This document shows, in pieces, positions 41,451 to 57,279 of a DNA stretch of 64,000 nt. The DNA is from an uncultured Holophaga sp. (GTDB lineage Bacteria; Acidobacteriota; Holophagae; Holophagales; Holophagaceae). The notes below the pieces were generated by a model. It was given only the letters and a program-made list of their open reading frames with translations, was not told the DNA's origin and made no database searches. Location: positions 704,001 to 768,000 of the forward strand of contig OY761614.1 in assembly GCA_963664825.1 (NCBI GenBank). The letters are read 5' to 3'. Within the stretch, counting starts at the first letter, position 1. Every line of letters begins with the position of its first letter. The position numbers and the translations under genes were made by a program.

Positions 41451-41616
41451 ATCGGCTTCAGTTCCCGTTACGGAAACGGAAGTTCTTACAAAAAATGACC
41501 GCAATTGCCCATCCCCATTGGTTTCCCGAGGATGGGCGTGTTGTTGAACTGGCTACATGGTGAATTGGAGTAGTTCGAAAACCCTCTTCTGATATGGCGT
41601 TGCTGAGGCATTCCGA

Positions 41617-41735
41617 GTCGTTCCCTTTGAATTCCTGAACGGAGACGGGAATGCCCTCCCGGTTTCAGATGAGGCCCACCATGATCTGGAGCTTGTCGTT
41701 GCGCCCCTCCTTGCCGTGGGAGTAGGCACCCAAGG
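41617..41735 (-). pseudogene. IS1634-like transposase fragment
   Basis: Hand translation LGAYSHGKEGRNDKLQIMVGLI*NREGIPVSVQEFKGN, with an internal stop. Confidence 0.6.
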
Positions 41736-41951
41736 TCCCTGGGTGTCAGGTGCTCAGACCAGGTTGCGTCCGAAATTACACAGTGGATCAGAGATACCCG
41801 GATTTTTGGGTTTGCCACATACTCTAAAAAGTTAGGAGTCCGCGCCGTTTCATCCGGATGGCTCCGCGTTCTGCTTCATACCCAGGTTAAGGCAGACTCG
41901 GCATGGTCTCGTGGGATCACTTCTCACGCATGCCCCCCCAAGGAGACCGGA

Positions 41952-43775
41952 ATGGAAGAGAAGATGTTACCCACCCCCATTGATAAAATGTTCGAGCTTT
42001 TATGTGAGAACGAGAAAAATGCCAGTGATTTAATCAGTATAAACAGGGATCTTGTTTTAAGTAACGAAAGCCTGGCTACGGACCTGATCGTCGCCAACAA
42101 AAACCTCGCTTGGGAAAATGAGAAGCTGACTTCGGAACTGATCTTAATAAAACAGGGGATCGCCGACCACCAAGTGGGTGAAGCTCGGCGGGCCGCCGAA
42201 CTGATCGTGGCCGATCATGAACTCGGGTTCCAGCAAAGCGAAAAGCAGAAACGTGCGGAGGAATTGGAGGTCGCCAATGCGGAGCTGACGTTCCAGCAGG
42301 GAGAGAAGAGTGAAAGGGCCGCCGAACTGGTGATCGCCAACGAAGAACTTCTCTATCAGCAAGGCGAGAAGGAAAAACGCGCGGCGGAATTGGAGGTCGC
42401 CAATGTGGAGCTGATGTTCCAGCAGGGTGAGAAGAGTGAAAGGGCCGCCGAACTGGTGATCGCCAACGAAGAACTTCTCTATCAGCAAGGCGAGAAGGAA
42501 AAACGCGCGGCGGAATTCGTGCTGGTGAATAAGGAACTCACCAAAGAAGGTGGCGAAGGAAGACGCGTGGCCGACCTGGTCCTCGCCAACCGGAAGCTGG
42601 CGTCCCAAAACGAAGAACTCGAGAAAAGATCGAAGGGCTTGCTCATCGCCAATAAGGACCGGCTGGAGTTGTTGGCCAGGCTGCTCCAGTCCCAGAAACT
42701 GGAAAGTCTCGGCACCCTTGCCGGTGGCGTGGCGCACGACATGAACAATGTGCTGGGTGCTATCCTAGGCCTCGCCTCGGTGCACCTGGAAATTCAGCCG
42801 CCGGAGAGTCCTGCCTACCGGGCCTTCGAGACCATCGCAAAGGCAGCAGTCCGAGGCGGGAAAATGGCCAAGAGCCTGCTTAGTTTTGCCCGTCAAAGTC
42901 CGGCCGTGGAGAACGAACTCGACCTCAACACCCTTCTCCGCGAGGAGGTCCGGTTGCTAGAGCGCACCACCCTGGCCAAGATCCACCTCAGCATGATGCT
43001 GACGCCGGACCTGCGGCCCATCCAGGGGGATGCCAGCGCCCTGACCAACGCCTTCATGAACCTATGCGTGAATGCTGTGGACGCGATGGAGGACAACGGC
43101 AGGCTGACCCTCCGAACCCACAATGTGGACAATGACTGGATCGAGGTCGAGGTCGAAGACACGGGGCGCGGAATGACGAAGGATGTTCTGGCGAAGGCTT
43201 TGGACCCCTTCTTCACGACCAAGGCGGAGGGTAAGGGCACAGGGCTGGGACTCTCACTGGTCTACAGCACGGTGATGGCGCACCGGGGTTCCATGACCAT
43301 CCAGAGCGCGCCGGAACAAGGCACCTGTGTAAAGATCCGCTTTCCCACCAGTGAGCCCCTGATCAAGGCGATGGAACTTGAGGATGCACACCCATCCTTG
43401 CCCTTCACCCACCACCTGCAGGTGCTAGTGGTGGACGACGACGACCTAGTGAGAGGTTCCACCCAAACCATTCTGGAATTGCTGGGACATACGGTTACGG
43501 GCGTCCCTAGCGGTGAAGAAGCCTTGGAGCAATTGGCAAGCGGCTTGGTGCCCGAGGTCGTGCTCTTGGATTTGAACATGCCTGGTCTCGGCGGAGCCGA
43601 GACCTTGAGCCGGATCCGCCTCCAATACCCTGACTTGCCAATTCTCTTGGTCACGGGCCGGGTCGACCAGACCGCTTTGGATCTCGTGGGGGCCCACCCA
43701 AATGTCACGCTGCTGGCCAAGCCCTTCACCATAAAGGAACTTCAGGCCCAGTTAAAAGCCCTGGGGTGGACGTGA
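41952..43775 (+). CDS. Cytoplasmic hybrid histidine kinase / receiver with N-terminal 21-aa coiled-coil repeats
   Basis: LAGGVAHDMNN, NLCVNAVDAM, DTGRG, FFTTK, GTGLGL; receiver VVDDD...LLDLNMPG...AKPF. Confidence 0.93.
   Translation: MEEKMLPTPIDKMFELLCENEKNASDLISINRDLVLSNESLATDLIVANKNLAWENEKLTSELILIKQGIADHQVGEARRAAELIVADHELGFQQSEKQKRAEELEVANAELTFQQGEKSERAAELVIANEELLYQQGEKEKRAAELEVANVELMFQQGEKSERAAELVIANEELLYQQGEKEKRAAEFVLVNKELTKEGGEGRRVADLVLANRKLASQNEELEKRSKGLLIANKDRLELLARLLQSQKLESLGTLAGGVAHDMNNVLGAILGLASVHLEIQPPESPAYRAFETIAKAAVRGGKMAKSLLSFARQSPAVENELDLNTLLREEVRLLERTTLAKIHLSMMLTPDLRPIQGDASALTNAFMNLCVNAVDAMEDNGRLTLRTHNVDNDWIEVEVEDTGRGMTKDVLAKALDPFFTTKAEGKGTGLGLSLVYSTVMAHRGSMTIQSAPEQGTCVKIRFPTSEPLIKAMELEDAHPSLPFTHHLQVLVVDDDDLVRGSTQTILELLGHTVTGVPSGEEALEQLASGLVPEVVLLDLNMPGLGGAETLSRIRLQYPDLPILLVTGRVDQTALDLVGAHPNVTLLAKPFTIKELQAQLKALGWT
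42261..42517 (+). repeat. 126-bp tandem duplication (63-bp base unit) inside the kinase
   Basis: GAATTGGAGGTCGCCAATG at 42261 and 42387; GAATT again at 42513. Confidence 0.9.
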
Positions 43776-43813
43776 ATTCCGGCTCTTCGCTGAATTGTGT
43801 GGGTAGGGCCTCT

Positions 43814-44180
43814 GGGTATCTGCCCCTGGAGCGACAGGCGGGCCATCTCCTGTTCCATCTGGTGCGCCGCCGCTATGAGAAGGGCAGCCTGCTGCTCACC
43901 AGCAACCAGCCCATCGAAGCCTGGGGCGAGATGCTGGGCGATAAGATCGTGGCGACCGCCATCCTGGACCGCCTGCTGCACCACAGCCATGTCCTGAGCA
44001 TCAAGGGCGACAGCTATCGCCTGCGAGAGAAACGCCGAGCCGGGATAGTCCCGGCACCGGAAGCCGTGGCCCCATAATCGCCGCGCCCGATGGGGCGCCC
44101 TCCGCTTCGGCCTACGCCCTCCGCTCCGGGCACCCCATCGGATTCACAACCAACAGGGGGTCAATATTCGTGTCGTCGGG
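43814..44180 (+). pseudogene. istB: IS21-family remnant (IstB C-terminus plus truncated end)
   Basis: GYLPL...RRYEKGSLLLTSN...AILDRLLHH..VLSIKGDSYR (stop 44077); GGGGTCAATATTCGTGTCG end cut off by the Mu-like end at 44181. Confidence 0.85.
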
Positions 44181-44355
44181 TGTAGCGCGGCAAAATGAAC
44201 CATCATAAGTCCGTCAGAATGATTGGTCGTTTCCAAACATTTTGACGGGTTGGCCTATCAGCCTCGGTTTCCACAACGACTGCGGAACCAAGCGCGAGAA
44301 AGCCCCGAAGCGCTGATGTCCGGAGGTTTCCTGGGGTGCTGCGATATGCGGGCAG

Positions 44356-44871
44356 TCAGATCCCAAGGATGGCATCCTTGTCCGTCGCCACGATCCACGC
44401 CCGCTGAGCCTCGTAGGTCGCAACGGGGATCAGGCCCGCTGCTAGGAGGTTGGCGCGGTAGAGGACAGAGTAGGACGCCACGGGCACCACGAGTGCTGGA
44501 CGCCCCGTTTCGGCCAGCGCGGCAGTGGTCCAGGCCGCCTCAGCATCGGCCTCGCTGATCTGCGGGTTGGCCTTGATCGCGTCGATGGAGGCGGCCTTCC
44601 CCGCGAAACGCTCGGCACGCAGGAGCTGGTCGATCGTGGAATACTGGCCAAACTCGGATGTCAGCCCCGGCCCGGCACCAATCTGGAGCGCGGCCAGCTC
44701 CTGATGCGCGGAGACGTATTGCCTCCCCGCATCCTGGGACAGGGAGCCGATCACCTGGGCGGCGTTGCCCAGGGCCGTCATTTGGCCCTTAATGGACTCC
44801 ACACGGAGGGCGGCCTGCTGGCGGCGGACCTCCTGGGCGAGAGCGGTCTGGGTGTTCTGATCGAGTGCCAT
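44356..44871 (-). CDS. Hypothetical phage protein at the right end of remnant 2
   Basis: 171-aa ORF with AGGAG RBS. Confidence 0.65.
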   Translation of the reverse strand: MALDQNTQTALAQEVRRQQAALRVESIKGQMTALGNAAQVIGSLSQDAGRQYVSAHQELAALQIGAGPGLTSEFGQYSTIDQLLRAERFAGKAASIDAIKANPQISEADAEAAWTTAALAETGRPALVVPVASYSVLYRANLLAAGLIPVATYEAQRAWIVATDKDAILGI

Positions 44872-44889
44872 AGTGGTCTCCTTGAAAGA

Positions 44890-46038
44890 TTACGTAGCGG
44901 GTTGAAGGACTTCGTCGTAGCGCGCTTTCAGGTTGTGGGAGAGCACGTCATCGCTGAAATAGGTGTGGCATCCATCCACCACGAAACTGATGACCTGCCC
45001 TTTGCCGGTGGGGATGATCGACTTCACGCGGCTCTCGCGCTGGGCGACGAGGAGATCACCAGGCTTGAGGTTGCGGACCTCTGCCCATCCCCCAGAGATC
45101 AGGGCCACGCGATGCGAGTCAGTGAATTCAGGCGCTCGGCCATCCTCCATCACTACGCACACCCGGTTGACCCAGCGCATATGGGGCTCTCGCACGGTGC
45201 CCACCGAGGGCTCCATGGTGGACTCGTCCACACCCACAACCTGCATCCCGTCGACGAGACTGCCCTTGGCGTCCATGCCTTCGGGCACGACCAGGCCGGG
45301 AGCGTCGATGAGCTTATTGGCCACCGCGATGTAGCGGCTCTGCTCGATATCGCCGGAATCCGCCGGGTAGGTGAGCATCAGCCGGTCGTGGGCATAGCGG
45401 GGATAATCCCGGTACGTGGCATAGGCCACGGCCACCTTGACCCGCGTCCACCGAGGCACGGTGCGGCCCCTGCCCAGGCCCCAGGGATTGCGGAAGTGGC
45501 TCCCATGCCGGTGCAGGATCAGCTTCCCAGGCTCCCAGACCCGCCCATTCACCGTGGGCGTCCGGTCCACGTCGAAGTTCAGGTAGAAGGGATCGAAGCT
45601 CTCCAGCTCCTGGGGCATCAGGTGGCCCTTGCGAACCTCCCAATGCACCTCCACGGGCACGAGGCCGTAGTAGCTGGCCTTGGCCAGTTCCTCGAAGTCC
45701 TCGATCAGGTTGAGCCCTTCCAGGGCCTCCCGGACGAGGTCCGTCACGGCCGTGGGAGTCCCAGGGCCAGGCTCCAGCGTCCAGGGCAGGCTGGAAACCA
45801 CTTGGCAGCGCAGATCCAGGCAGGCGGCGGCCTTGGGATCCCGCAGGGCGTCATGCAGCTCCTGCCACTGTCCAAGTCGATCCGTGCCGGTGTCCAGGTT
45901 CGGGTTCAAAAACCCCCCCGGAGAAAGCCAGGGAATGGCCGGGTCCGTCTCCTGGAGCACATCCAGGCGCTGGGGCTGGCTGGGCTGAGCCGCGAGAAGC
46001 GCGGGTAGGCTGCGAAGGCGAGTCCAGAGGCTGCTCAT
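44890..46038 (-). CDS. Chimeric ORF: Mu gp29/DUF935-like portal N-terminus fused to a C-terminal Hint domain
   Basis: Portal-like RDPKAAACLDLR, YYGLVPVEVHW, NPWGLG; Hint-like WAEVRNLKPGD...VDGCHTYFSDDVLSHN. Confidence 0.75.
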   Translation of the reverse strand: MSSLWTRLRSLPALLAAQPSQPQRLDVLQETDPAIPWLSPGGFLNPNLDTGTDRLGQWQELHDALRDPKAAACLDLRCQVVSSLPWTLEPGPGTPTAVTDLVREALEGLNLIEDFEELAKASYYGLVPVEVHWEVRKGHLMPQELESFDPFYLNFDVDRTPTVNGRVWEPGKLILHRHGSHFRNPWGLGRGRTVPRWTRVKVAVAYATYRDYPRYAHDRLMLTYPADSGDIEQSRYIAVANKLIDAPGLVVPEGMDAKGSLVDGMQVVGVDESTMEPSVGTVREPHMRWVNRVCVVMEDGRAPEFTDSHRVALISGGWAEVRNLKPGDLLVAQRESRVKSIIPTGKGQVISFVVDGCHTYFSDDVLSHNLKARYDEVLQPAT

Positions 46039-47690
46039 TCAACCACCCCACTGCGCATGCCCAGGGCCGCTCCGCCGAAGGGACGCTTCTTGAAGCGACC
46101 GCCCGTAGCGCCCTGGAGGGCATCGGGGCCGTCGTCGTTGGGCCCCTTCGGGAACTGGAGGAGCTGCTCCTTCAGCTTCCGGATCCCCGACGCGCCCCCA
46201 TTGGCCATGGGTTCGATGGAGCCATTGCCCAGGGCCGCCGGACTCAGCCGGGGGAACCGGATCCGGCCCGTATCCACGGCGGGCGCCATGCTCTCGATGC
46301 GGGCGGTCTTCTCACCCTTGGGGGGCACCGTCGCAATGGCCAGAAAGATCCCTTCCTGGTCTGCCAGCAGCGCCACGATATCGGCCAGGGATTCCTGGTA
46401 GGCCACGGATTCAGCCTGGATGCGCCCGCCGTAGGTCTCCCGCTGGGCCAGAATGGCCTTGCCCGTCGCCGTGGGGCCAAGCTTCCTGATAACGGCATCC
46501 AGCACGTAGCAGACGCCCTCGGAGAATCCCACGGTCACCAGGGCCGTAAAGTCCCCGCGTTTCTTGCCCAGGGCCGGGTCGATATGGGTCACCAGGGTGA
46601 GCCGCTCGGGAAGCCGGTCGTACTCGTCAAAATGTTTGAAAGGTTTCGCGTCGTCGCCCTGGGCGCGGTTCTCCATCTCCTGGCTGAAGCTGCCCGGATC
46701 CTCGGCGTCCATCTTGGAACGCAGCCAGCGCAGGTGCTTCCCGGGGAAGCGCTCGGGCCAGAGGGGATTCTCGTCCTCGTCCCAGCAGCGCCAGATGGCG
46801 CCCCCGAAGGTGTGCAGCAGGGACATGAGCAGGCTGTCGTCGTGCAGGACCGTGCCCAGGCAGAGCAACGATCCCCGGGTGGGATCCAGCGCCGGGATCA
46901 CGGCCTTGATGAACCAGCCCCGGAGCTTCTTGCGGCGGGCCGGGCTCTCCACGGCCTCGTCGTTCTCCACGTCGTCCATCACCACCAGGTCCGGACGGCG
47001 GCCCTGGAACGTGCGACCACGGAGCTTCTGGCCCGAGCCGAAGGCCTGGAGGCGAGCGTGCTTGAAGGGGGGCTTCTCGCCCCCTGCCCTTGCGGGAATC
47101 ACCAGGTCTAGGACGCCCTCGGGGCCTTCCGCATGGATCTGCCCATAGTCCGTGCGGATGCGGGGGCTCTCCTCAAGCACCAGGCGCACAGCCTCCACAA
47201 AGCCCTTGGCCTGGTCGAAGGTGTCGCTCACGGCCTGGGCATAGCCCTTGCGGCCCTCCAGGAGGCACCACGCCAGGAAGGCGATGGTCCCCCAGGTGCT
47301 CTTAGCATGGCCACGGGGCGCGGCCAGGACGGCGGCATGGATGTCCGGCGTCTCCTCCCCTTCTTCCACCTGGCGCGGCACCAGCTCCCCGAAGGGACCC
47401 GGATCCACGGGCACCGGCTCCCGGCCCTCGGCCAGGGCCTGGCAGGTGGCCGCCAGGGCTTCATGCAGGGCGCATCCGTTCCCCTGGATCAGCTCGGGAA
47501 GGTAGGTCCGAGCGAAGAAGGTGAAGTCCTGGTGGGCGCGGGCGCGGCGGCGCATGCCGCCCTCGGGGGTGCGCTCGGAGACCGGGAAGTCCTCCATCTC
47601 CCGCAGTCGGGAGATCAGCTCCTCCAGCTGCTGGGCAGCCTTTCGAGCCTGCGCCTTGCTGGCGCGGGGAATGGAGACGCGGGAAGCCAT
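46035..47690 (-). CDS. Terminase large subunit
   Basis: APRGHAKST Walker A, RPDLVVMDDVEND Walker B, IDPA and FPKGPNDDGPDAL nuclease motifs. Confidence 0.92.
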   Translation of the reverse strand: MASRVSIPRASKAQARKAAQQLEELISRLREMEDFPVSERTPEGGMRRRARAHQDFTFFARTYLPELIQGNGCALHEALAATCQALAEGREPVPVDPGPFGELVPRQVEEGEETPDIHAAVLAAPRGHAKSTWGTIAFLAWCLLEGRKGYAQAVSDTFDQAKGFVEAVRLVLEESPRIRTDYGQIHAEGPEGVLDLVIPARAGGEKPPFKHARLQAFGSGQKLRGRTFQGRRPDLVVMDDVENDEAVESPARRKKLRGWFIKAVIPALDPTRGSLLCLGTVLHDDSLLMSLLHTFGGAIWRCWDEDENPLWPERFPGKHLRWLRSKMDAEDPGSFSQEMENRAQGDDAKPFKHFDEYDRLPERLTLVTHIDPALGKKRGDFTALVTVGFSEGVCYVLDAVIRKLGPTATGKAILAQRETYGGRIQAESVAYQESLADIVALLADQEGIFLAIATVPPKGEKTARIESMAPAVDTGRIRFPRLSPAALGNGSIEPMANGGASGIRKLKEQLLQFPKGPNDDGPDALQGATGGRFKKRPFGGAALGMRSGVVE

Positions 47691-47929
47691 CAGCGGCGGC
47701 CCTTCCGGCGGGGCTGAAGCTCATCGGCGGCTGCGGTCGCATACCAGGCGGCCTTCCGGAGATCCTCAGCCGCAGGGCCCTTGAGTCCGGCCCGCCAGGC
47801 GTATTTCACGACAGCACCCCGGCAGTAGGCCTGGAAGCCTTCCGGCCCGAGGGCCGCCTTCAGGGCCTCGATGCACTCGATGTCGCCTTGGGTGTAGTGG
47901 CTGGGATGATTGATGAGATCGGCTTTCAT
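47690..47929 (-). CDS. DUF3310-like phage protein
   Basis: INHPSHYTQGDIECIEA...KYAWRAGLKG..EDLRKAAWY. Confidence 0.88.
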   Translation of the reverse strand: MKADLINHPSHYTQGDIECIEALKAALGPEGFQAYCRGAVVKYAWRAGLKGPAAEDLRKAAWYATAAADELQPRRKGRR

Positions 47930-48078
47930 GGCTTTTCCTTGTCGGGATCACGGAAGGGGCAGTCGTCAAAGGCGGCGCCGCAGGAATCCAGCACGCGGCA
48001 GACCCGGCACTCGGGGGCCACCGTGGCGGCCAGGAAGTGGTTCACGTCAGGCTCTGGAGGCAGCAGCGGCACGCTCAC
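47926..48078 (-). CDS. 50-aa Cys-rich phage protein
   Basis: GTG start; CRVC..C..CPF; 4-nt overlaps with both neighbours. Confidence 0.6.
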   Translation of the reverse strand: MSVPLLPPEPDVNHFLAATVAPECRVCRVLDSCGAAFDDCPFRDPDKEKP

Positions 48079-48572
48079 ACGGACCTCCGCTGCATTTCAT
48101 CCAGGAAGCCCTTCCAGGCCTCCAGCAGGGCCGGAGCCTCCTCCGGGCATTCCTTCAACACGAAGGCCTGGAACTCCTCACCCACCACCAGCGCGGCATC
48201 CATGAGCCGGTAGCCCTGGCGTTTGGCGATCATGAGCTTGAATTTGTTGACGTTGCCAAGGAGGCTCAGCAGGTCGGGAATGGGCAGGTCGTCGCCATCC
48301 CGGTCCAGGCGGCCCAGGAGGCGGCGCAGGGCCCGCTCCTCCAGGTCATCCAGGGCCATGCCATGGACCTGGAGCCAGCTTTCCCGCGCCTCCCGCCAGT
48401 GCCCTTCCTTGGCCCAGGCCTGCACTGTGCGGGAGCTGCATCCGATCGCCTCGGACACCTGGTCAGGCGTCTTGGCATCCTCAATGAAGAGGCGCCGTGC
48501 CTTCGCCCGATCCTCGTCCGTCCAGCGGGTATTGCCATGGGGTTTTGCCGGGGGCTGGGGCTTGGGCTTCAT
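48075..48572 (-). CDS. DUF1804-like HTH protein (putative Mu-type small terminase)
   Basis: ARRLFIE...VSEAIGCSSRTVQAWAKEGHW; position upstream of TerL. Confidence 0.65.
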   Translation of the reverse strand: MKPKPQPPAKPHGNTRWTDEDRAKARRLFIEDAKTPDQVSEAIGCSSRTVQAWAKEGHWREARESWLQVHGMALDDLEERALRRLLGRLDRDGDDLPIPDLLSLLGNVNKFKLMIAKRQGYRLMDAALVVGEEFQAFVLKECPEEAPALLEAWKGFLDEMQRRSV

Positions 48573-48886
48573 GGCCGAGCCGCTTTCTTGGCAAATTCAA
48601 GAAGCGTTGCCTGGAGGGTCTGTCCCATGGCATCCAGGCGGCCTTCCATGCGGACGGCCAGCGCTTCCAGGCGATCGCGCATCTCGTCGCCCGTCGGCAG
48701 GGCTTCCATGCCCTTCTTGAGCACGGAGACGAGGGTTTCCAGGTGCTGGACCTTCCGCTCCAGTTCGTTGATCTTGGCCCACTGGGCCCTGGCGTCGGAC
48801 TTGGCCTGGGCTCGAAAAGCTCCCCAGATGGCGATGGAGATCATGGCCAGGAGGGCGGCCAAGGCGATCCAGTCGGCGGGTTTCAT
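48569..48886 (-). CDS. Membrane-anchored coiled-coil phage protein
   Basis: N-terminal TM helix plus coiled coil, between holin and small terminase as in Mu-like phages. Confidence 0.6.
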   Translation of the reverse strand: MKPADWIALAALLAMISIAIWGAFRAQAKSDARAQWAKINELERKVQHLETLVSVLKKGMEALPTGDEMRDRLEALAVRMEGRLDAMGQTLQATLLEFAKKAARP

Positions 48887-49357
48887 TCATCCCCCGCCGC
48901 AGGCTTGGACTTGAAGAGGAGCGCATCCTTGGCCCGGCTACCGCTGGAGGAGCCGTAGTAGTAGTTCACACAGCCGACCCAGGCCGTGCCCAGGGAGCCG
49001 AGCATCGTATAGACGCTGGCCTTGTTGGAGTCCGGGATGGGCCGGATGAGCAGGAACACCAGCAGCCCGAAGAACCCCACCGTGATGGCATAGAACCCGA
49101 TGGCCGGGACATGGTCCCGCACGGACATCTCACGTTTGCGGGCGCTGTCCCGGTCGCTGGCGGCGATCTGCTCCAGGTCCACCAGCTGCTTGAAGCCCAT
49201 GGCCTGCATGCGCTCCTCGTGCTCCTGCTCGGCCTGATTCAGGGCCAGGAACTGGTCCCCGGTGAGGGAGCCCGCTGCGGCCATCTGGGCGGCCTTCTGG
49301 GCGTTCTCCAGGCTGGGAGCCAGGCCCGTGGCTTTGCAGACGGCCTCCACGGCGATA
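48883..49357 (-). pseudogene. Holin-like protein, 5'-truncated by IS256
   Basis: DRDSARKREM, two TM helices, YYYGSSSGS. Confidence 0.7.
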
Positions 49358-50044
49358 GAGTCCCATCAAGTGGTGTAGCAGTGGTTCAGTGAGAGGTGGC
49401 CACCGGTTCCGTAAGGTGAGGTTTGCGAACTTACCGAACGGAGAGACCGATGGCCATCAATAGGGTGTCTGGGCTGGAAGCCCTGAGCAAGGTTTTGGAG
49501 GAGGGGAACGGTGATTTCCTGCGGCGTGTGCTGCTGATGGGGCTGGAGGCGGTGATGGAGTCCGACGTTTCGGGGCTCTGCCAAGCGGGCCCTGGGGAGC
49601 GGACGCCGTCACGGGAGAACCACCGAAACGGCTACCGCGACCGGGAACTGGAAACGCGGCTGGGCACGCTGCCGCTGGCCATCCCAAAGCTCCGGCAGGG
49701 CAGCTACTTCCCGAACTTCCTGGAGCCGCGCCGTCGGTGGGAACAGGCCTTCGTGAACGTGGCGGCAGAGGCCTACGTCGCGGGCGTGAGCACGCGAAAG
49801 GTCGAGGCGTTGGTGGAGGCCCTAGGCTGCCGGGGGATGTCGAAGTCCGAGGTCTCCCGGCTGGCGCAGGAGTTGGATGCGGAGGTGGAGGCGTTCCGGA
49901 ACCGCCCGCTGGAAGGTTCTTTCCGCTACCTCTGGCTGGACGCCCTCTATCCGAAGGTTCGGGAAGGCGGGCGCGTGGTAGGGCTGGCGGTGATGGTGGC
50001 CATGGCCGTGAATGCGGAGGGTAAACGCGAGGTGCTGGGGCTGG
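49358..50044 (+). mobile_element. IS256-family element, 3'-truncated (transposase ATG at 49450)
   Basis: RNGYRDRELETRLG, PKLRQGSYFP, GVSTRKV, YLWLDA; similarity stops at GKREVLGL. Confidence 0.88.
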
Positions 50045-50452
50045 GTTCGCCTGTGCATATCGAATTGGGCGCTTTCCAGTGCTTTGCGTTCAGATACGCC
50101 CCGGCATCGCCGCATTGGGACACGATCAAGATCCGGATGCGTTCCCAAAATTCATCTGGAGTCTTGGACGTTTTGGACATTGGAAAATGTCTGGACCTCT
50201 AAGTTGAAGCCCCCGCCATGATTGGCTCTCGGACGTTTCGGTCATTCCAACATTCTCCTGTAATGAACCGCATGGTTTGGCACGTCACTACTGATTGTTC
50301 TGGTGCGCCAAAGCAATCGAACCATGACGCGCCTTCACTCGGTTTGGGAAACGCCACTGAAATCCAGTCCCACAGCAAGAATGAGACTGCCGTATGGGCG
50401 ATTTGCCCCCAACAATAAAATATGGGTAGAAGGATGGGTTGACATAGCAATG

Positions 50453-50489
50453 AATCGTCAAGTCACCTTTTAACAGTGACTTGGCGATT
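50453..50489 (-). terminator. Hairpin downstream of tRNA-Ser
   Basis: AATCGTCAAGTCAC...GTGACTTGGCGATT. Confidence 0.6.
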
Positions 50490-50493
50490 GTTT

Positions 50494-50583
50494 TGGCGGA
50501 GAGATAGGGATTCGAACCCCAGTTACGGTCACCCGTAAACCTGATTTCGAGTCAGGCGCATTCGACCACTCTGCCATCTCTCC
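50494..50583 (-). tRNA. tRNA-Ser(CGA)
   Basis: GGAGAGATGGCAGAGTGG...CCTGA-CTCGAAA-TCAGG, long variable arm, GGTTCGAATCC, encoded CCA. Confidence 0.97.
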
Positions 50584-50845
50584 AGGCGCAGAATCATATC
50601 AGGATTCCGGCTTCCGCTGGAGGGGCACTCCACAATCCTGGATACAGGAGGCCTGGATGACGATTTCGCAAGGGGCGGCGCTTTGGGCTACCCGGCGCTG
50701 ATGCCCCGAGCCGCGCCTCCGGAGGCTACAGGGCGAACATGGCTGGGCGGTTTCGCCGTTCAGACTGTAGCGCGGCAAAATGAATCGTATGGAATCCGTC
50801 AGAATGATTGGTAGACTTCAAACATTCTGACGGCTCAGCCTACGG

Positions 50846-51184
50846 TCACTCCTTCACCGCCGCTAAATCGGCCCGGATTTCGATATCCAGGAGCGCCTCC
50901 CATAGCCCCCCAAGGGTTGTTTGGGTGCCATTCCCCAGGGTTATGACCGTCGCCAAGATTGCAGCGGTTTTAGACACATCCAGGGACAGCCAGTGGGCGT
51001 TCATCCCCAGAGCCAGGGGTGTTGTCTGCCCGTTCGCCCCAACTGCGAACTTATCATCAGCGTAAGCCAGGGTCAGAGAATGCTGGGACGTCCCATCGGG
51101 CATCTGGAGGCGGTTGACGCTCCAGTTGGTGGCTATGGTCTCCGTGACGATGTTCTCTGTCGTGGTGGTGGTTTGTGCGGCCAT
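50846..51184 (-). CDS. Hypothetical phage protein downstream of the tail-fibre fragment
   Basis: 112-aa ORF with GAGG RBS. Confidence 0.6.
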   Translation of the reverse strand: MAAQTTTTTENIVTETIATNWSVNRLQMPDGTSQHSLTLAYADDKFAVGANGQTTPLALGMNAHWLSLDVSKTAAILATVITLGNGTQTTLGGLWEALLDIEIRADLAAVKE

Positions 51185-51199
51185 GTGGGTTCCTCTTTG

Positions 51200-51665
51200 T
51201 TAGTTGGTGCATAGCAGAACCACGTCGTAGACGTAGACTGTCGCCTGAGCGGTGTGGTAGCCGTCCTTTGCATTTCCCGCCCTCGCCGATGAGAGGGTGA
51301 CCCGTACCCGGATGGTTGTGCTGTTTGTAACTGTGATATTTGCGATCGTGACGGGACTGCTCGCGGAAAGGCTAAGGTTCGAGCCAGGGGCCGTGATGGT
51401 CTGGGAATAGGGCCATGTGGAACCGTTATCAAGAGAGATCTCCACTTTGACCGAGGCATTCGTACGGATTGTTGTATCCGCAACGGAGTTGTGCCAGGTA
51501 ACCCCTCCGAGAGTGCCACCGAGGGCGACCATCAGGACTCCATTACGCGTCCCGGTGCCACCCCAGCCCTGATAAACCCCATACGCGTAGTTGATGCCAA
51601 TAGTGGTAGCGGGAGGGGTCTGGGAATTGGTCGAATAGGTGCTAGTTTCAACGCCTGCGCTGAAA
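51200..51665 (-). pseudogene. C-terminal fragment of a tail fibre / receptor-binding-like protein
   Basis: Thr/Ser-rich beta-strand frame open well upstream of the first ATG (51532); lower GC; located near the right end. Confidence 0.55.
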
Positions 51666-51852
51666 CGCGACTGGAGGTCGTGACGGGATCATCGGTCACC
51701 GTCACATTGGGCAGCGTCCGGAGATAGACGGCCTGGGCGGCGGTGATGGGGATCGCCGTATCGGCCGTCAGTTCCAGGCCGGAGGCCGGAATGGAGGGAT
51801 CGTTGCTGGAGTTGAGGCAGAGCGTGCTGCCGGTGTGGATCGCTTTGGGCAT
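51532..51852 (-). pseudogene. Small phage protein running across a probable deletion junction near 51670
   Basis: MPKAIHTGS...; C-terminus reads out of frame over the tail-fibre fragment. Confidence 0.45.
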
Positions 51853-51856
51853 GGGG

Positions 51857-52240
51857 TCATCCGATGAGTTGGGCGAAGAGCGCCCCGACGAAAACGGGGT
51901 GGAGGCGCTCTGGGCGAGTGGTTTTGGGAACGAAATTGGTGTGGGCCTCTTCCATCCAGGCCCGAATGGCGAAAAGGGCGTCCATGGCGCTCTGGCGCCG
52001 GACCTTCTGATCCGTCCCAGGCACCACGGCGCAGAAAGCGAAGTCGATCGCATCTCCGCCACGCACGACATGGTTGCCTCCCACCACGGCCACCAGCAGG
52101 TGGGGCGCTGCCAGGTTCAGTTCGTCGTTTTCCAGATCCACCTGGCCTGCCAGGGATTCGATGGCGAATTCCCGGAGTTCAGGCAGATCGGCAGCGATCA
52201 GGGCTTCCACGGCGGATTCCTCGAGGGCAGTGACGTTCAT
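51857..52240 (-). CDS. Mu gp37-like tail terminator / completion protein
   Basis: 127 aa; assignment mainly from position after gp36-like and G-like genes. Confidence 0.5.
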   Translation of the reverse strand: MNVTALEESAVEALIAADLPELREFAIESLAGQVDLENDELNLAAPHLLVAVVGGNHVVRGGDAIDFAFCAVVPGTDQKVRRQSAMDALFAIRAWMEEAHTNFVPKTTRPERLHPVFVGALFAQLIG

Positions 52241-52821
52241 GCGCCCTCCTGGATCCGTCCGGTGAGGATGAAGGTGGTCACCATCTCGGCGTAGTTCTCC
52301 GCCTCCCCAGGCTGAAAGAGGAGGTAGGGGCGGGCGGGCATGGGAATGCCATAGGCCCCATGGGTGAAGGCCCGCTCCACGGCCCGCTTGTGATGGCCAG
52401 CCGCAAAAACCGCCAGGTGGGAATTCCGCCCCTCGGTTCCCTGCCGGAGCAGACGGCCCTTGGCGTCCGTGCGCAGGCGCACGGTGCCGCTCTTTGCAGA
52501 ACGGGGGATGATGCCCCCCTCCTGATGGATCCGGGCGTAAGGCCAATTCGAGCCGATGGCGACGGTTTTCCCCTGCACTTGGGCCACGACCGAGCGGGCC
52601 AGGTTGCCCGACCATGTGAGGATCTTGCTCTTCCCTCTGGCGGTCTTCCGCCGACGGGTGGCCTTCTTCACTTCCTGCCAGCGATCGGGGCGCCCCTCGG
52701 CCCGGAAGTTCTGCTCCGTGCTTCGGATCATCAGATCCCCGATCGCCTTCAGGACGGGCGTCGGGTCCTCCGCCCTGGCCTGGGTAGCTTGCAGACTGGT
52801 GAGCAGCTCCTGAGGTGTCAT
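52237..52821 (-). CDS. Phage virion morphogenesis protein (Mu gpG-like)
   Basis: LKAIGDLM..STEQNF..EGRPDRW, IGSNWPYARIHQEGG, MPARPYL. Confidence 0.88.
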   Translation of the reverse strand: MTPQELLTSLQATQARAEDPTPVLKAIGDLMIRSTEQNFRAEGRPDRWQEVKKATRRRKTARGKSKILTWSGNLARSVVAQVQGKTVAIGSNWPYARIHQEGGIIPRSAKSGTVRLRTDAKGRLLRQGTEGRNSHLAVFAAGHHKRAVERAFTHGAYGIPMPARPYLLFQPGEAENYAEMVTTFILTGRIQEGA

Positions 52822-53249
52822 GGGCGCCCCCCGAAGGCGCCGTCCACGGCATGGGCCGGGTCCAGCACCTCGATGCGATGAGCGGAGGTGGACCCCGCCA
52901 GGCCGCCCGGAATCGGGATCTCTCCCGAGGCCAGGCGATCCAGCAGAGCCCGACTGCGTTTGATGCGACTGTCCCAGCCCTCGGGGATCTTGGCGGCCAT
53001 GCCCTTCTGGCGGAGATAGAGGGCCTCCACCGCCAGGTCCAGGCAGATCTCCCGGAGGATCCCCTCCGGGGTGACCGGAAGGGCATGTCCAGCCAACACG
53101 CCCCGAACCTCCACCTCCGCCCGGTCCAGGACGCCCTGCAGCACCGTTTCGTCAGGAGCGGCCGCACGTCCTTCTCCGGTGGAGAGGGTGATCAGGTCCG
53201 CCTGGGAGAGGCGGGCTTGCAGGGCGGAGGGCTGGAACCATGCGCTCAT
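52818..53249 (-). CDS. Mu gp36/DUF1320-like head-tail connector
   Basis: LITLS...LDRAEVEVRGVL...LPV.P..LREICLDLAVEALY...LDRLASGEI. Confidence 0.8.
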   Translation of the reverse strand: MSAWFQPSALQARLSQADLITLSTGEGRAAAPDETVLQGVLDRAEVEVRGVLAGHALPVTPEGILREICLDLAVEALYLRQKGMAAKIPEGWDSRIKRSRALLDRLASGEIPIPGGLAGSTSAHRIEVLDPAHAVDGAFGGRP

Positions 53250-53251
53250 GG

Positions 53252-54151
53252 CTACAGCACGCCGGAGAGGCCGCGACCGAGGTCGGCGCCGACCTTCTTC
53301 ATGTCATAGGCCGCACCCAGGGCGATGACGCTGCCACCGGAATTGCCGATCTCCGGGTCTTCCCAGAGGCGCACCAGGCGCCCCCGGTCATTGGCCGCAT
53401 AGACCTGGCTGGTGGTCTTCGGGGCCTCGGAAGCATAGAGTTCCTGCCCCTCCAGCTCGAAGATGGCGGCGAAGGTGGCATCGGCCTCGCTCAGTTCGTC
53501 CTGGGGAGCGCGGTAGCAGAGGAAGACCTCGTCGCCCCAGACGTAGTCATAGACCGCCGCCCGGCCCTTGGGGGTGGTGATGCCCTTCATCTCGGGCACC
53601 AGGATCTCCTTCACCTCAAAGATCTCCGCCAGCTGGGGGAGCGTCAGGGATCCGGGCTGGGCGTTTCCGCGCAGGGCCAGCATCTTGGGGTGGTATTGCA
53701 GACGGTCCACCACCCGACGGCCCAGGACGCAGAGGTTGCTGCCCATGAGGACCTTCTGACGCAGGGCCTTCATGTCCTTGACGGGATCGGAGGCGTCGTC
53801 GGACCACTTGGTGGCCACGGCGTCGTGGGTGAATCCGGCCACCAGGACGGCGGCATCGGCTTCCACATCCATATCCAGCTTTCCCTGAAGGGTCTGAACC
53901 GCCCGATTGACGCGGTTGACCTGGAAGGGGGTGAGGGTCTGGATGCCGAAGGGCACTTCCTGGCGGAGGCCCCAATCCTTGCAGGCATAGCCGTCCGTCG
54001 TTTCACCTTCGGTGATGGACTTGGGGCGGGCTAGGCGGGCCATCTTGCCGCTCTCACGGCGGAACACGGCCTCCTTGTCGAAGAGGGTGTAGGTGCCGCC
54101 CCGGAGGGACACCGGCACTCGGTTGAAGAGCCGCCGGGCAATGGGGAGCAT
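53252..54151 (-). CDS. Major capsid protein (N-terminus probably trimmed by deletion)
   Basis: IARRLFNRVPV..GTYTLFDKE, KWSDDASDPVKD, LQYHPK, LAEIFEVKEILV, YVWG; position before gp36-like gene. Confidence 0.78.
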   Translation of the reverse strand: MLPIARRLFNRVPVSLRGGTYTLFDKEAVFRRESGKMARLARPKSITEGETTDGYACKDWGLRQEVPFGIQTLTPFQVNRVNRAVQTLQGKLDMDVEADAAVLVAGFTHDAVATKWSDDASDPVKDMKALRQKVLMGSNLCVLGRRVVDRLQYHPKMLALRGNAQPGSLTLPQLAEIFEVKEILVPEMKGITTPKGRAAVYDYVWGDEVFLCYRAPQDELSEADATFAAIFELEGQELYASEAPKTTSQVYAANDRGRLVRLWEDPEIGNSGGSVIALGAAYDMKKVGADLGRGLSGVL

Positions 54152-54312
54152 GTGCCATCGTCCTCCAACTTCCAATCAGGGGAATTCGAAGGTTGGATAA
54201 GGGAATTTGCAGGTTGTGGCGATGGCGTGCTTGGTTGTGGCGTGGTTCCGATTAGCGACACAACCGCCGCAACCTTCGGTTGCGTCGCCAAGATGGTAGC
54301 CAGGGATTCCAT
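54152..54312 (-). pseudogene. 5' stub of the gene after ner (position of the transposase A gene in Mu)
   Basis: ATG 10 nt after the ner stop; after about 53 codons runs out of frame into capsid sequence. Confidence 0.45.
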
Positions 54313-54321
54313 CGGTGATCC

Positions 54322-54654
54322 CTATGCCACATTCTCGGCCTGGCGGCCCCACATACGATTAGCTTCGAGACCAAGGCGAGTCGCAATTACATTCTCAACG
54401 GTGGCATCGCGGCGGGTACGGTCGATAACTTGATGAAAGTAGGCGTCGCTATAACCAGCCGCCTCTGCCATGGGTTTGACCTCAACACCCTTGAATTTGA
54501 GCAGGGCGCGGATGGTCTGGGACATCAGGCTGCCATCGGCGTTCACCCCACCAGCCATAATGAGTTGAACGTCCTGGGTGCTCCTCAGGAAGACATTTAG
54601 ATCTGCAGGCAAGCCATAGGCCGCCCTCTTACGTTGGGCCTTTTCGGGTAGCAT
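54322..54654 (-). CDS. Ner/Cro-like HTH regulator
   Basis: IRALLKFKGVEVKPMAEAAGYS...VENVIATRLGLEANRMW; divergent from the repressor. Confidence 0.8.
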   Translation of the reverse strand: MLPEKAQRKRAAYGLPADLNVFLRSTQDVQLIMAGGVNADGSLMSQTIRALLKFKGVEVKPMAEAAGYSDAYFHQVIDRTRRDATVENVIATRLGLEANRMWGRQAENVA

Positions 54655-54697
54655 CTTGGTCTCCAGTTGCTTTGAACACGAAGCGTGTCTGTCCACT

Positions 54698-54725
54698 AGA
54701 ATAGATTCTGAACGAATCGCGTCAA
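54698..54725 (-). promoter_or_regulatory. Putative early promoter with palindromic operator
   Basis: TTGACG-16-TATTCT on - strand; GATTC-N5-GAATC palindrome in the spacer. Confidence 0.5.
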
Positions 54726-54752
54726 CTCTTTTTTGAGTCTAAACGTATCAAA

Positions 54753-55475
54753 ATGGATAACTCCCAGCCACATGAGAGACTTACATTGGCGAGGCAAACC
54801 CTTGGCCACAGCCAACGAGCGTTCGCTATTCCCCTAGATGTCTCCCAGGCGGCCGTGCATCGCTGGGAATCAGGGGATGTAGCGTTGACACGTATCGTAT
54901 TGACCGCGATTGAACACATCCACGGGATTTCTGAGCACTGGGTCAATACTGGCGAAGGCCTTATGTGGGCCCCAAAAAACACATCTCCCGAAGGCGGCGC
55001 CGACCTGGAATACCGCCCTCTCATCTCGGGCGCGGCCTCGTGTGGCCCTGGTGGGGAGATCGCCGACCCTGGCCCAACGGCAATGCGAATGCCCTTCCGC
55101 AAAGACTTCCTCCAGGAGCTGCTCCAAGAAAGCGGTGCCGGATCCACAGAAGATCTCTATGTCGTGGAATGCTCCGGTGAATCCATGCGGCCAGCCGTCC
55201 ACCCTGGCGACATGGCTCTCATCAACACATCCCTTGAACTTCGGATACAACCCAAGCGGAACGCCCTCTACCTAGTGCGTTCCGACCCAGCCAGTGCAGA
55301 GGGCCGCATCAAGCGAGTCCGCATTGATGCCGATGGTCAGCTCTGGTTCATGTCGGATGCACCAGGCTTTCCACCAATCGCTGTCGACCTGGATAGCCTG
55401 CCCTTGCAGAGCCTCATCCTTGGCCGCATCTGCTGGCTTGCCCGCAGCGTCGTTAAGGACGAGCGGAACTGGTAG
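54753..55475 (+). CDS. CI/LexA-like repressor (XRE HTH plus S24 peptidase)
   Basis: SQRAFAIPLDVSQAAVHRWESG HTH; ASCG cleavage-like site; GESMRP and IKR catalytic motifs. Confidence 0.92.
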   Translation: MDNSQPHERLTLARQTLGHSQRAFAIPLDVSQAAVHRWESGDVALTRIVLTAIEHIHGISEHWVNTGEGLMWAPKNTSPEGGADLEYRPLISGAASCGPGGEIADPGPTAMRMPFRKDFLQELLQESGAGSTEDLYVVECSGESMRPAVHPGDMALINTSLELRIQPKRNALYLVRSDPASAEGRIKRVRIDADGQLWFMSDAPGFPPIAVDLDSLPLQSLILGRICWLARSVVKDERNW

Positions 55476-55654
55476 GCGGCTCGTTCCAAACATATTGACG
55501 GATTTAGAAGGTCCACGAAGGATCCGAAGCTCATCCGCAGCATCCGCGCATTCTTTTTGACGGATTTCCGCTTCGTTACGCGTCATCCGTCCCAAACTTA
55601 TTGACGGATTCGCAGGTATTCAGATCACCATGAAAGCCCCGCCCGCATTGAATT

Positions 55655-56821
55655 TCAGGCCATGTGCCCGAATCGGTCGTCATGCGAATCATTTCGACGG
55701 ATCACACAGACGCTGGATGCCGGCGGTGTTTTGAAACAGCCAAAGTAGTCCCGGTCCCCCTGGAGCAGGTGGTCGCGGACCACCTCCACGGCGAGGAAGG
55801 TCACCAATCGCCCCAGATCCAGGCGGCCCGCATCCAGATCCTGTTCCAGGTCCTGGATGGAACTCAACAGCCGCTGGTGCTCGGCGGCATGGGCGGGAAG
55901 GGCCGGGTAGCCAACTTCCAGAAGCCGCGCCTCCTCGTCATGGAAGTGCTGCGCCACGTGGGCGATGAGGCGCCGCAGGTGGAGCCCCAGATCGGCCGAG
56001 GGCTGGCCGCCGTCCATGGAGGCGAAGAGACTGTTCGTCAGTTCGAAGAGTTCCTGGTGCTGGGCATCGATCTGGGGCTGCCCGGAGGCGTATGCGTCGT
56101 CCCAGTTCAGCCGGAAGGGGATGGCGTGGACACCTTCCAGGAGCCCCACCACCCTCGACGCGCACTCCAGGCGGTTCCGCCCCCCCTCCTTGGCGCGATA
56201 TAGAGCCTGGTCCCCCCGGGCGATCCAGTGTTCAAACTCCTCCCCCAGCCCATACTCGGCTACGCCCAGACTCAGGGTGAGGCTTCCGCAGCCGGGAAAG
56301 ACCGTGGAGGCCACGGCCAGACGGATTTTCTCGCCCAAAGCCATCGCCCCCTCCAGGCGCGTCCCCGCCGCCAGGATCAGGAATTCCTCCCCTCCCCAAC
56401 GGGCCAGGAAATCCGAAGCCCGCAACTGCTCGCGCACCACCTCGGCCACGGTGGCCAGCACCGCGTCCCCGACGGCATGACCGTAGGTGTCGTTGACGCG
56501 CTTGAAGTAGTCCAGATCGAAGAACAGGAGGCTGAGAGGGTCCCCCCGGCGACCCGCCAGGGCGATGAGGGTAGTCCCGGCCTCCTCCAGGCGCCGACGG
56601 TTCCACAATCCCGTCAGCCGGTCGGTGCCCGCCACCCGCTCGAGGCTCTCGACAACATTGAGCAGCTCCCGGTTGGCATGTTCCGCCGCATCCCTGGCGC
56701 GTTCCGCCTCTGCCAGGTACCGACATGACCTCCTTCCACCCAGGAGATAGCCGATCCACGCCCCGCCGAGGAGGAGCGACAGACCCAGCAGCCAGGGGAT
56801 AGAGAGCATGAACCTACTCAT
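55655..56821 (-). CDS. Diguanylate cyclase with C-terminal hemerythrin domain
   Basis: DLDYFKRVNDTYGHAVGD, RWGGEEF; IDAQH, HFHDEE, HAAEH, HLLQGD. Confidence 0.92.
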   Translation of the reverse strand: MSRFMLSIPWLLGLSLLLGGAWIGYLLGGRRSCRYLAEAERARDAAEHANRELLNVVESLERVAGTDRLTGLWNRRRLEEAGTTLIALAGRRGDPLSLLFFDLDYFKRVNDTYGHAVGDAVLATVAEVVREQLRASDFLARWGGEEFLILAAGTRLEGAMALGEKIRLAVASTVFPGCGSLTLSLGVAEYGLGEEFEHWIARGDQALYRAKEGGRNRLECASRVVGLLEGVHAIPFRLNWDDAYASGQPQIDAQHQELFELTNSLFASMDGGQPSADLGLHLRRLIAHVAQHFHDEEARLLEVGYPALPAHAAEHQRLLSSIQDLEQDLDAGRLDLGRLVTFLAVEVVRDHLLQGDRDYFGCFKTPPASSVCVIRRNDSHDDRFGHMA

Positions 56822-57279
56822 CGACGGCGATGGAAGAAGGCTTGAAGCACCGCTCGGCATTCGGTCTCCAGCAATCCGCCTTCCAGGCTGAAGCGGTGGT
56901 TGAGGTTGGCCCGTTCCAGGAGCTCCCGGTGCTGGGAGACGCCCACCTTGGGATCCGGCGCGCCGTAGACCACCCGCTCCACCCGGGCGTGCGTCAGGGC
57001 GCCGAAGCACATGAGGCAGGGTTCCAGGGTCACGTAGAGGGTGGCGCCCACCATGCGGTAGTTCTTCAGCCATTCGCAGGCACTGCGCAGGGCCATGATC
57101 TCCGCGTGAGCGCTGGGGTCATGGCGCCCGACGGGGCAATTGTGGCCCCGGGCCACGAGCTGGCCGTCCAGCACCAGCACCGCCCCAATGGGCACTTCGT
57201 CCTCCCGATCCGCCTGTTCCGAGGCTTCCAGGGCGAGTTTCATGAAGTAGAGATCATCATCGGTCCACATGACGCTCAT
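56818..57279 (-). CDS. tadA: tRNA adenosine(34) deaminase
   Basis: EVPIGAV, HAE, TLEPCLMC. Confidence 0.93.
   Translation of the reverse strand: MSVMWTDDDLYFMKLALEASEQADREDEVPIGAVLVLDGQLVARGHNCPVGRHDPSAHAEIMALRSACEWLKNYRMVGATLYVTLEPCLMCFGALTHARVERVVYGAPDPKVGVSQHRELLERANLNHRFSLEGGLLETECRAVLQAFFHRRR

What the first reader, a model, noticed from the sequence alone, without database searches (positions are those of the whole stretch)
50766..55706. 4.9-kb 'mini-Mu' with both ends and target duplication intact, keeping immunity switch and capsid but no transposase
Seen: TGT...ACA termini flanked by an exact CAGAC duplication. Contents are repressor, Ner-like gene, capsid, gp36-, gpG- and gp37-like genes and a tail-fibre stub, joined by two apparent internal deletions (near 54152 and 51670). 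Transposase A/B, lysis, terminase, portal and most tail genes are absent. Known: Mu-like phages make 5-bp duplications and are several-fold larger, and mini-Mu derivatives with both ends can be mobilised in trans. Inference: this is either a natural non-autonomous satellite-like element of a transposable phage, or a domesticated immunity/interference cassette. Neutral in-situ decay of a full prophage is the simpler alternative.
Basis: partly seen in the sequence, partly recalled or inferred. Interest (0 to 1): 0.85.

Follow-up and report, generated by a model that had tools for sequence, protein, structure and literature searches.

The report
Internally deleted Mu-like prophage remnant
This is the 4.9-kb leftover of a roughly 38-kb jumping bacterial virus that lost most of its middle after it inserted, one of several such crippled copies in this genome; it is most likely ordinary prophage decay, not a new kind of mobile satellite.

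Summary
Ends (TGT…ACA), CAGAC duplication, gene content and both junctions are real; read contigs span both junctions. But the capsid gene is not intact: it lacks about 23 N-terminal residues present in 6 of 6 close homologues, a ~55-codon transposase stub survives, and both junctions cut genes. Full-length relatives exist (G066, 38.5 kb, own 5-bp duplication). This genome holds four repressor–ner remnants, each with transposase cut at a different place, even two 99.9%-identical twins. No junction occurs twice, and no intact transposase, MuB or helper remains. Similar end-intact deletion products occur in other genera (G093 4.1 kb; G091 12.3 and 18.7 kb), and the scan noted such elements before on other DNA. 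Best reading: in-situ deletion after insertion, favoured because losing transposition and lysis removes a lethal burden; the intact repressor probably still gives immunity as a by-product. A mobile satellite is not supported. One oddity remains: the truncated capsid has a strong ribosome-binding site and start codon, downstream of the repressor-controlled early promoter region.

The parts
50761..50765 (.). left copy of the 5-bp target duplication CAGAC
   Evidence: empty-site reading restores the host stop codon
50766..50833 (+). tail-side end (TGT...), with inverted transposase-binding-like sites; the same end motif occurs 7 times in the genome
50846..51184 (-). intact 112-aa terminal ORF, no family hit; its last 25 codons are duplicated 100% at C1:2988508-2988582
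51200..51680 (-). 3' fragment of a probable tail/fibre gene, native start lost, out of frame with the upstream stub
   Evidence: frames; label positional, only weak unnamed PHROG hits
51670..51688 (.). deletion junction 2 (removes tail tube, tape measure and most tail genes)
   Evidence: G066 65-aa gene matches residues 1-55 up to 51688; DNA homology to G019 stops at 51837; spanned by contigs in X1, X2, X4
51688..51852 (-). 5' part of a small conserved late gene (65-71 aa in relatives), cut by junction 2
51857..52240 (-). gp37-position gene, intact, 127 codons
   Evidence: 48-50% to G019/G066 genes; no Pfam/PHROG hit
52237..52821 (-). gpG-like virion morphogenesis gene, intact
   Evidence: phrog_26, PF05069
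52818..53249 (-). gp36-like head-tail adaptor, intact
   Evidence: phrog_195, PF07030
53252..54151 (-). major capsid gene lacking about 23 N-terminal residues; usable ATG at 54151 with GGAGGA 9 nt upstream
54143..54165 (.). deletion junction 1 (removes most of A, all of B, other early genes, lysis, terminase, portal, protease, decoration gene); exact base not fixable without the parent
   Evidence: spanned by contigs in X1, X2, X4, X5
54143..54312 (-). N-terminal ~55 codons of transposase A; its frame runs on out of frame over the capsid start to a stop at 54031
   Evidence: assignment by position and a short shared motif, no family hit
54322..54654 (-). ner-like regulator, intact
   Evidence: phrog_769; 52-58% to homologues
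54673..54725 (.). region with two overlapping divergent sigma-70-like sites; by analogy with Mu it would hold operators and the transposition enhancer
   Evidence: 2 sites found, 1.4 +/- 1.2 expected, so not above chance; enhancer position by analogy, PMC3145075
54753..55475 (+). immunity repressor, HTH plus peptidase S24, intact 240 aa
55482..55706 (+). repressor-side end (...ACA) with four transposase-binding-like repeats; 4 such ends in the genome
55707..55711 (.). right copy of the target duplication CAGAC
55655..57073 (-). host GGDEF-type gene whose stop codon was split by the insertion; it now reads about 16 codons into the element
   Evidence: domain label from the visible GGEEF motif, not scanned

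Best explanation
A ~35-38 kb temperate transposable (Mu-like) phage with a non-contractile-type tail module inserted here by its own transposase, making the CAGAC duplication (shown). Two large internal deletions with breakpoints inside genes then removed about 87% of it (shown against full-length relatives; that they came after insertion is inferred). Such deletions are favoured because loss of transposase A/B and lysis ends lethal induction; whatever lies outside the breakpoints, including the repressor next to one end and a capsid-to-neck block in the middle, is carried along (inferred). The remnant cannot move or make particles in this host, which has no intact A or B (shown). Its intact repressor most likely still blocks homoimmune superinfection as a by-product (inferred, untested). 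It is one of four such remnants in the chromosome, with three different repressors.
For: Full-length relatives with the same end motifs and their own 5-bp duplications: G066:C2:306156-344631, 38.5 kb, CTGAT; G019 in three contigs, ACCGC. 4 of 4 repressor-side ends in G000 carry intact c and ner and a cut transposase, at four different places: about codon 55 (this element), 22 (E5), 226 (E2b, E2a numbering) and 395 (E2a). E2a and E5 are 99.93% identical over 1461 bp yet have non-nested deletions, so deletions arose independently in near-identical copies. A twin of this element's tail end (158 of 158 bp) sits at C1:2988665 with another flank and lost everything beyond, including the rest of the host gene it interrupts, so deletions do not spare both ends. 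G019 B, A residues 377-811, protease, decoration, tube, tape-measure and tail proteins have no tblastn match in G000. Both junctions fall inside genes. Other genera hold end-intact deletion products with yet other breakpoints: G093 4148 bp, G091 18.7 and 12.3 kb. Rapid large-segment deletion and small border-intact degraded proviruses are described in PMC13626063 (passages).
Against: The order 'insertion, then deletion' is not directly shown: no relative with the full prophage at this site was found, and the 158-bp twin is too short to show which form moved. The truncated capsid has an in-frame ATG with a strong Shine-Dalgarno site (-9.3 kcal/mol), which a random junction gives in only 30-60 of 17199 simulated cases. 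Four retained late genes and c/ner have no stops or frameshifts, though copies appear too young for that to count. G091 copy a keeps full-length A and B, so loss of transposase is not universal among such remnants. The deletion mechanism is unexplained: no Ku, no matching CRISPR spacer, only about 2 bp overlap at the one junction with both parents known.
Confidence: 0.76

Rival explanations
1. Domesticated immunity cassette: the host keeps c-ner modules under selection, building a panel of three heteroimmune repressors against this phage family; deletion of the rest is the domestication step.
For: c and ner intact in 4 of 4 repressor-side ends; three repressor types (73% and 58% identity to ours). 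c also intact in the G093 mini element.
Against: Geometry alone predicts much of it: c lies within ~1 kb of the end, and a left breakpoint placed at random between the end and the transposase core spares c about 70% of the time, about 0.25 for four of four (hand estimate from the coordinates). 3 of 7 tail-side ends have no repressor-side partner. Relatives were found by searching with ner, so retention there is built in. dN/dS against G019 (0.14-0.55 across six genes) measures phage-lineage history, not selection after deletion.
Confidence: 0.13
2. Capsid-interference cassette: junction 1 placed a truncated capsid plus neck genes under the repressor-controlled early promoter with a working translation start; on derepression these subunits poison assembly of a related phage.
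For: ATG at 54151 with GGAGGA 9 nt upstream, -9.3 kcal/mol, as strong as the best native sites in the element; random-junction rate 0.17-0.35% at that strength, 1.9-3.8% at -5. Lost residues include the near-invariant R19 and N20. gp36, gpG and gp37 follow intact.
Against: The test is post hoc, on one of several junctions, with a null drawn from relatives' A genes. The start may be parent-derived: G066 capsid codons 10-12 are the same ATG CTC CCC and homologue N-termini read M-L-x-I. No sibling or relative remnant keeps this block. The A-stub frame overlaps the start. The promoter should be silent in the lysogen.
Confidence: 0.07
3. Non-autonomous satellite of a transposable phage: the 4.9-kb form arose earlier, moves with a helper's A/B proteins and is packaged by it.
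For: Both ends, the duplication and the c-ner interval are kept, which are the cis parts that laboratory mini-Mu needs (PMC3145075, passages). A second copy of the same tail end exists at another site. Small end-intact elements recur in the family.
Against: The deleted form occurs once in the genome; 0 exact junction-1 matches in JGI metagenome contigs; end motifs gave 0 matches in IMG/VR; contigs of runs X1 and X2 show no branch at the junctions and depth like the flanks, 21.9 against 18.9-22.7 in X1. No helper in the genome. No two small elements share an architecture. Its own repressor would silence a homoimmune helper (established Mu biology; enhancer specificity of heteroimmune helpers is recalled, one search found no paper to cite).
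Confidence: 0.04

Closest known systems
Laboratory mini-Mu(LER) elements (PMC3145075, passages read)
   Same: Both ends, the repressor-ner interval where the enhancer lies in Mu, most genes missing, needs A and B in trans.
   Different: Natural; no helper in the host; mobility not shown; repressor is of the HTH plus peptidase S24 type, which from recall differs from the Mu c protein.
Cryptic or degraded proviruses made by rapid large-segment deletion (PMC13626063, passages read)
   Same: Large deletions from a full-length ancestor, core viral genes lost; that paper also notes small proviruses that keep borders but are degraded.
   Different: Transposable phage with both ends and the 5-bp duplication kept; four parallel cases in one chromosome.
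B3-like Pseudomonas transposable phages (B3, JD18, JBD67) and Mu-like alphaproteobacterial phages (POA1180, vB_ThpS-P1, vB_RhkS_P1)
   Same: Closest named capsids (about 27% identity) and transposases (27-34% over a quarter to a third of the protein); genomes of 38-42 kb.
   Different: Only distantly related; the parent family (G019, G066, G000 remnants) had no close record in the GenBank phage collection searched.
Capsid-forming PICI (PMC10085698, passages read)
   Same: Small element with regulator, capsid and head-tail genes and no complete tail.
   Different: No integrase, primase, terminase, portal or protease; capsid truncated; derived by deletion from a phage rather than a conserved family.

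Membership tests
Mu-like (transposable) prophage, defective | TG...CA termini with repeated transposase-binding-like sites | tested here: met
   same motifs end G019 and G066 prophages
Mu-like (transposable) prophage, defective | 5-bp target duplication | tested here: met
   CAGAC; empty site restores host stop
Mu-like (transposable) prophage, defective | repressor divergent from ner-A-B at one end | tested here: met
   c, ner and A stub here; full c-ner-A-B in G019 and G066
Mu-like (transposable) prophage, functional | intact transposase A and B, head, tail and lysis genes | tested here: not met
Non-autonomous satellite / natural mobile mini-Mu | cis parts for transposition kept (both ends, enhancer interval) | tested here: met
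   ends; the enhancer itself is inferred from position only
Non-autonomous satellite / natural mobile mini-Mu | same deleted form at more than one site or host | tested here: not met
   one copy in G000; 0 in metagenome contigs; not in 60 relatives; very near genomes may be left out of collection scans
Non-autonomous satellite / natural mobile mini-Mu | a helper supplying A, B and particles | tested here: not met
   none in this genome; an outside helper cannot be excluded
Non-autonomous satellite / natural mobile mini-Mu | packaged and transferred on induction | not testable with these tools
   needs virion DNA sequencing
cfPICI | integrase, primase-replicase | tested here: not met
   no such ORF among the element's ORFs
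cfPICI | own head module: terminases, portal, protease, whole capsid | tested here: not met
   absent from the element; capsid truncated
Domesticated immunity cassette | intact repressor | tested here: met
Domesticated immunity cassette | purifying selection after loss of autonomy | tested here: inconclusive
   dN/dS 0.14-0.55 against G019 reflects phage history; no second, diverged copy of the deleted form to compare
Domesticated immunity cassette | expression and protection | not testable with these tools
   no RNA holder listed

The most novel reading that the evidence does not exclude
This host lineage repeatedly tames Mu-like phages into a panel of heteroimmune repressor cassettes, and this copy has gone one step further: its deletion wired an N-terminally clipped capsid and three neck genes to the repressor-controlled early promoter with a strong ribosome-binding site, so that derepression releases decoy subunits that spoil assembly of related phages, a prophage-derived capsid restriction factor.
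Probability: 0.07. Interest if true: 0.78.

Novelty: new member of a known kind. Interest (0 to 1): 0.32.

Why it matters
As decay, it is ordinary, but unusually well documented: four parallel transposase-cutting deletions in one chromosome, plus end-intact remnants of 4-19 kb in two other genera, show how transposable prophages that cannot excise get neutralised, and warn that 'both ends plus target duplication' is not evidence of mobility. It also points to a family of transposable phages with no close named member. If the clipped capsid were expressed and inhibitory, it would be a new route from prophage debris to anti-phage defence.

Tried and rejected
Assembly artefact: rejected; contigs from four runs cover junction 1 and three cover junction 2. 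X1 and X2 may be the source sample or one data set filed twice; X4 and X5 are other samples of the same two studies. CRISPR self-targeting as cause: 112 spacers from three arrays; none matched the remnants, best match on 11 phage-bearing loci 24 of 33 nt, protein-level matches like shuffled spacers; the deleted DNA itself is unknown, so this is not excluded. Ku-type end joining: PF02735 not found, control rang in B. subtilis. PF09299 search rang nowhere, including controls, so it says nothing. Expression: no RNA holder listed. Structure prediction of a full-length capsid relative was poor (mean pLDDT 49.7, residues 1-22 under 50); fold and sequence searches give 3bjq and lambda-type capsids but do not tell what the lost residues do. 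Scans of viral and metagenome contigs with capsid or transposase found one distant locus or nothing. dN/dS was computed and set aside as uninformative. The tblastx was noise and was not used. The G142 match to the end motif lies in host genes and was dropped. Four ner loci (G025, G137, G004, G094) were seen only as +/-1.5 kb and were not classed. Host taxon was not determined (one search gave no names). Literature searches found no paper on natural satellites of transposable phages or on truncated-capsid interference; the library lacks most classical Mu papers, and no supplements were opened (the provirus tables of PMC13626063 could hold such elements).
Full report
Observation. The element runs from TGT at 50766 to ACA at 55706 (4941 bp) between two exact CAGAC copies. 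Both ends carry repeats of a TTGACGGATT motif, direct at the repressor side and inverted at the tail side. Removing the element and one CAGAC restores a TGA stop to the neighbouring host gene exactly at the site. A 4689-nt contig in runs X1 and X2 covers 50894-55582 without differences, across both junctions, at a depth like the flanking contigs; shorter contigs in X4 and X5 also cross junction 1, and one in X4 crosses junction 2. These four runs come from two studies and may include the source sample, so they show the structure is real, not that it is widespread.

Gene content. PHROGs and Pfam confirm an HTH plus peptidase-S24 repressor, a ner-like gene, a capsid, gp36 and gpG. The gp37-position gene has no family hit but is 48-50% identical to the gene at that place in two full-length relatives. 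Two corrections matter. First, the capsid gene is cut: similarity to the 320-aa G019 protein starts at residue 24, and 6 of 6 close homologue clusters are 319-320 aa against 299 here; the lost part includes near-invariant R19 and N20. Second, the first ~55 codons of transposase A remain after ner. Junction 1 thus joins the A stub out of frame to the capsid gene. Junction 2 cuts a 65-71-aa gene after about residue 55 and joins it out of frame to a startless tail-gene fragment.

The parent. Of 133 genomes of the host's family, 11 hold a ner homologue. G066 has a contiguous 38.5-kb prophage with the same end motifs, a CTGAT duplication and the order c, ner, A, B, early genes, terminase, portal, protease, capsid, gp36, gpG, gp37, tube, tape measure. 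G019 has one in three contigs with an ACCGC duplication. The element keeps about 13% of such a genome. The nearest named phages are distant: B3-like capsids at about 27% and alphaproteobacterial Mu-like transposases at 27-34% over part of the protein.

The genome context decides the reading. G000 has 7 tail-side ends and 4 repressor-side ends of this family. All 4 repressor-side ends carry intact c and ner, and in all 4 the transposase is cut, at about codon 22, 55, 226 and 395. Two of them, E2a and E5, differ by one base in 1461 and then diverge into deletions that cannot derive from one another. A twin of this element's tail end, 158 of 158 bp identical, sits at C1:2988665 with a different flank; it lost everything beyond, and the 3' part of the thioredoxin-like gene it interrupts was not found. 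The capsid and neck genes have no second copy. G019's B protein, A residues 377-811, protease, decoration, tube, tape-measure and tail proteins have no match in G000, so there is no helper. The exact junction-1 35-mer gave 0 matches in JGI metagenome contigs, with the caveat that very near genomes may be left out.

Other genera show the same outcome with other breakpoints. G093 has a 4148-bp element with both ends, a TTTGC duplication, intact c, and ner fused in frame to a tail protein. G091 has three siblings of a related group whose early genes join directly to tail genes; two have mapped ends and duplications (18.7 kb AGAAG, 12.3 kb CTGGC) and the third keeps full-length A and B. These were found through ner, so their c-ner retention is built into the search. 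G021 looks near-complete and G082 is fragmentary; four more loci were seen only briefly and not classed. Earlier notes of this scan describe two comparable naturally deleted Mu-type prophages on other DNA, one without a repressor (unchecked).

Mechanism. Shown: insertion scar, two intragenic deletions, no transposition or particle genes left in the host. Inferred: a transposable prophage cannot excise cleanly and kills on induction (established Mu biology), so deletions that remove A/B and lysis are favoured, while a deletion removing only the repressor would be lethal. The repressor lies within 1 kb of the end, so it is often spared; a hand estimate gives about 0.25 for four of four by geometry. 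The repressor very likely still binds its operators and gives homoimmune protection; its S24 domain passes the Pfam cut-off and the cleavage and catalytic motifs look intact by eye (motifs recalled), which would make it DNA-damage inducible. Polylysogeny and rearrangement by a Mu-like phage under selection for lower induction are described in PMC11406979 (abstract and passages), and rapid large deletion of proviruses in PMC13626063 (abstract and passages). How the deletions are made is unexplained: no Ku, no matching spacer among 112, about 2 bp overlap at the E5 junction.

Selection. dN/dS against G019 is 0.27 (capsid), 0.36, 0.52, 0.55 (neck genes), 0.14 (ner) and 0.23 (c), but this spans the divergence of two active phage lineages. 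With sibling copies differing by under 0.1%, intact frames are expected without selection.

The result against my reading. The clipped capsid has an in-frame ATG at 54151 with GGAGGA 9 nt upstream, -9.3 kcal/mol against the host's anti-Shine-Dalgarno. Random junctions into three relatives' A genes give a start this strong in 30 of 17199 cases within 5 codons and 60 within 10; at -5 kcal/mol, 330 and 660 (the threshold there was read one base off but had the same value). The test is post hoc, and the start may come from the parent: G066 capsid codons 10-12 read the same nine bases. It still leaves open that a clipped capsid and neck block is made on derepression.

Comparison. It works like a mini-Mu in its cis parts (PMC3145075, passages) but fails the satellite tests that could be run. 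It is not a cfPICI, lacking integrase, primase, terminase and portal (PMC10085698, passages). PMC8987985 (passages) had nothing on this case. Searches found no paper on natural satellites of transposable phages; older Mu literature is mostly outside the library and supplements were not opened.

Verdict. A real, young, internally deleted Mu-like prophage; a new member of a known kind. Decay in place 0.76, selected immunity cassette 0.13, capsid-interference cassette 0.07, mobile satellite 0.04. Interest 0.32.

Noticed in passing
window 44181-49353: A second remnant of the same phage family 1.4 kb away: tail-side end, a 171-aa gene, a portal gene cut where an intein-like stretch ends, terminase and holin-like genes, broken off by an IS256 fragment. 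Its genes follow on from those where E2b stops at another IS256 copy, so the two may be halves of one prophage.
   Followed up: partly
window 41374-44180: Another tail-side end followed by a hybrid histidine kinase with repeated 28-aa blocks and an IstB-like fragment; no partner end found.
   Followed up: no
L001-L003 (G000:C1:2637009-2677958): Two heteroimmune remnants in tandem, 39 bp apart, inside one outer GCCGC duplication; the 39-mer is unique in the genome and is confirmed by read contigs. Their transposases differ at the N-terminus but are 99% identical over a 282-bp core stretch. The interval carries IS elements, signalling genes and what looks like a lanthipeptide cluster with ABC transporters.
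   Followed up: partly
L005 (G000:C1:3459590-3462880): Remnant E5: both ends share a GCTAG duplication but face the same way, with an IS66-like copy between them, suggesting an IS-linked inversion.
   Followed up: partly
L079:13845-17992 (G093:C1:2535845-2539992): A 4148-bp natural mini element of the same family in another genus, inserted just past a radC-like gene; ner is fused in frame to a tail-protein domain.
   Followed up: yes
L068-L076 (G091): Three sibling Mu-like prophages whose early genes join straight to tail genes; one keeps full-length A and B and could mobilise the other two, a better place to look for in-trans movement.
   Followed up: partly
G000:C1:469682-476297 and 2797584-2797733: A 109-repeat CRISPR array beside a type I-E-like cas cluster, and a 3-repeat mini-array whose second spacer matches the chromosome 33 of 33 at C1:1700705-1700737.
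   Followed up: no
window 50037-50519: 96% copy of C1:2678317-2678796, including the 3' end of the tRNA-Ser gene, next to a methyltransferase cluster there: probably attachment-site remains of an integrative island.
   Followed up: no
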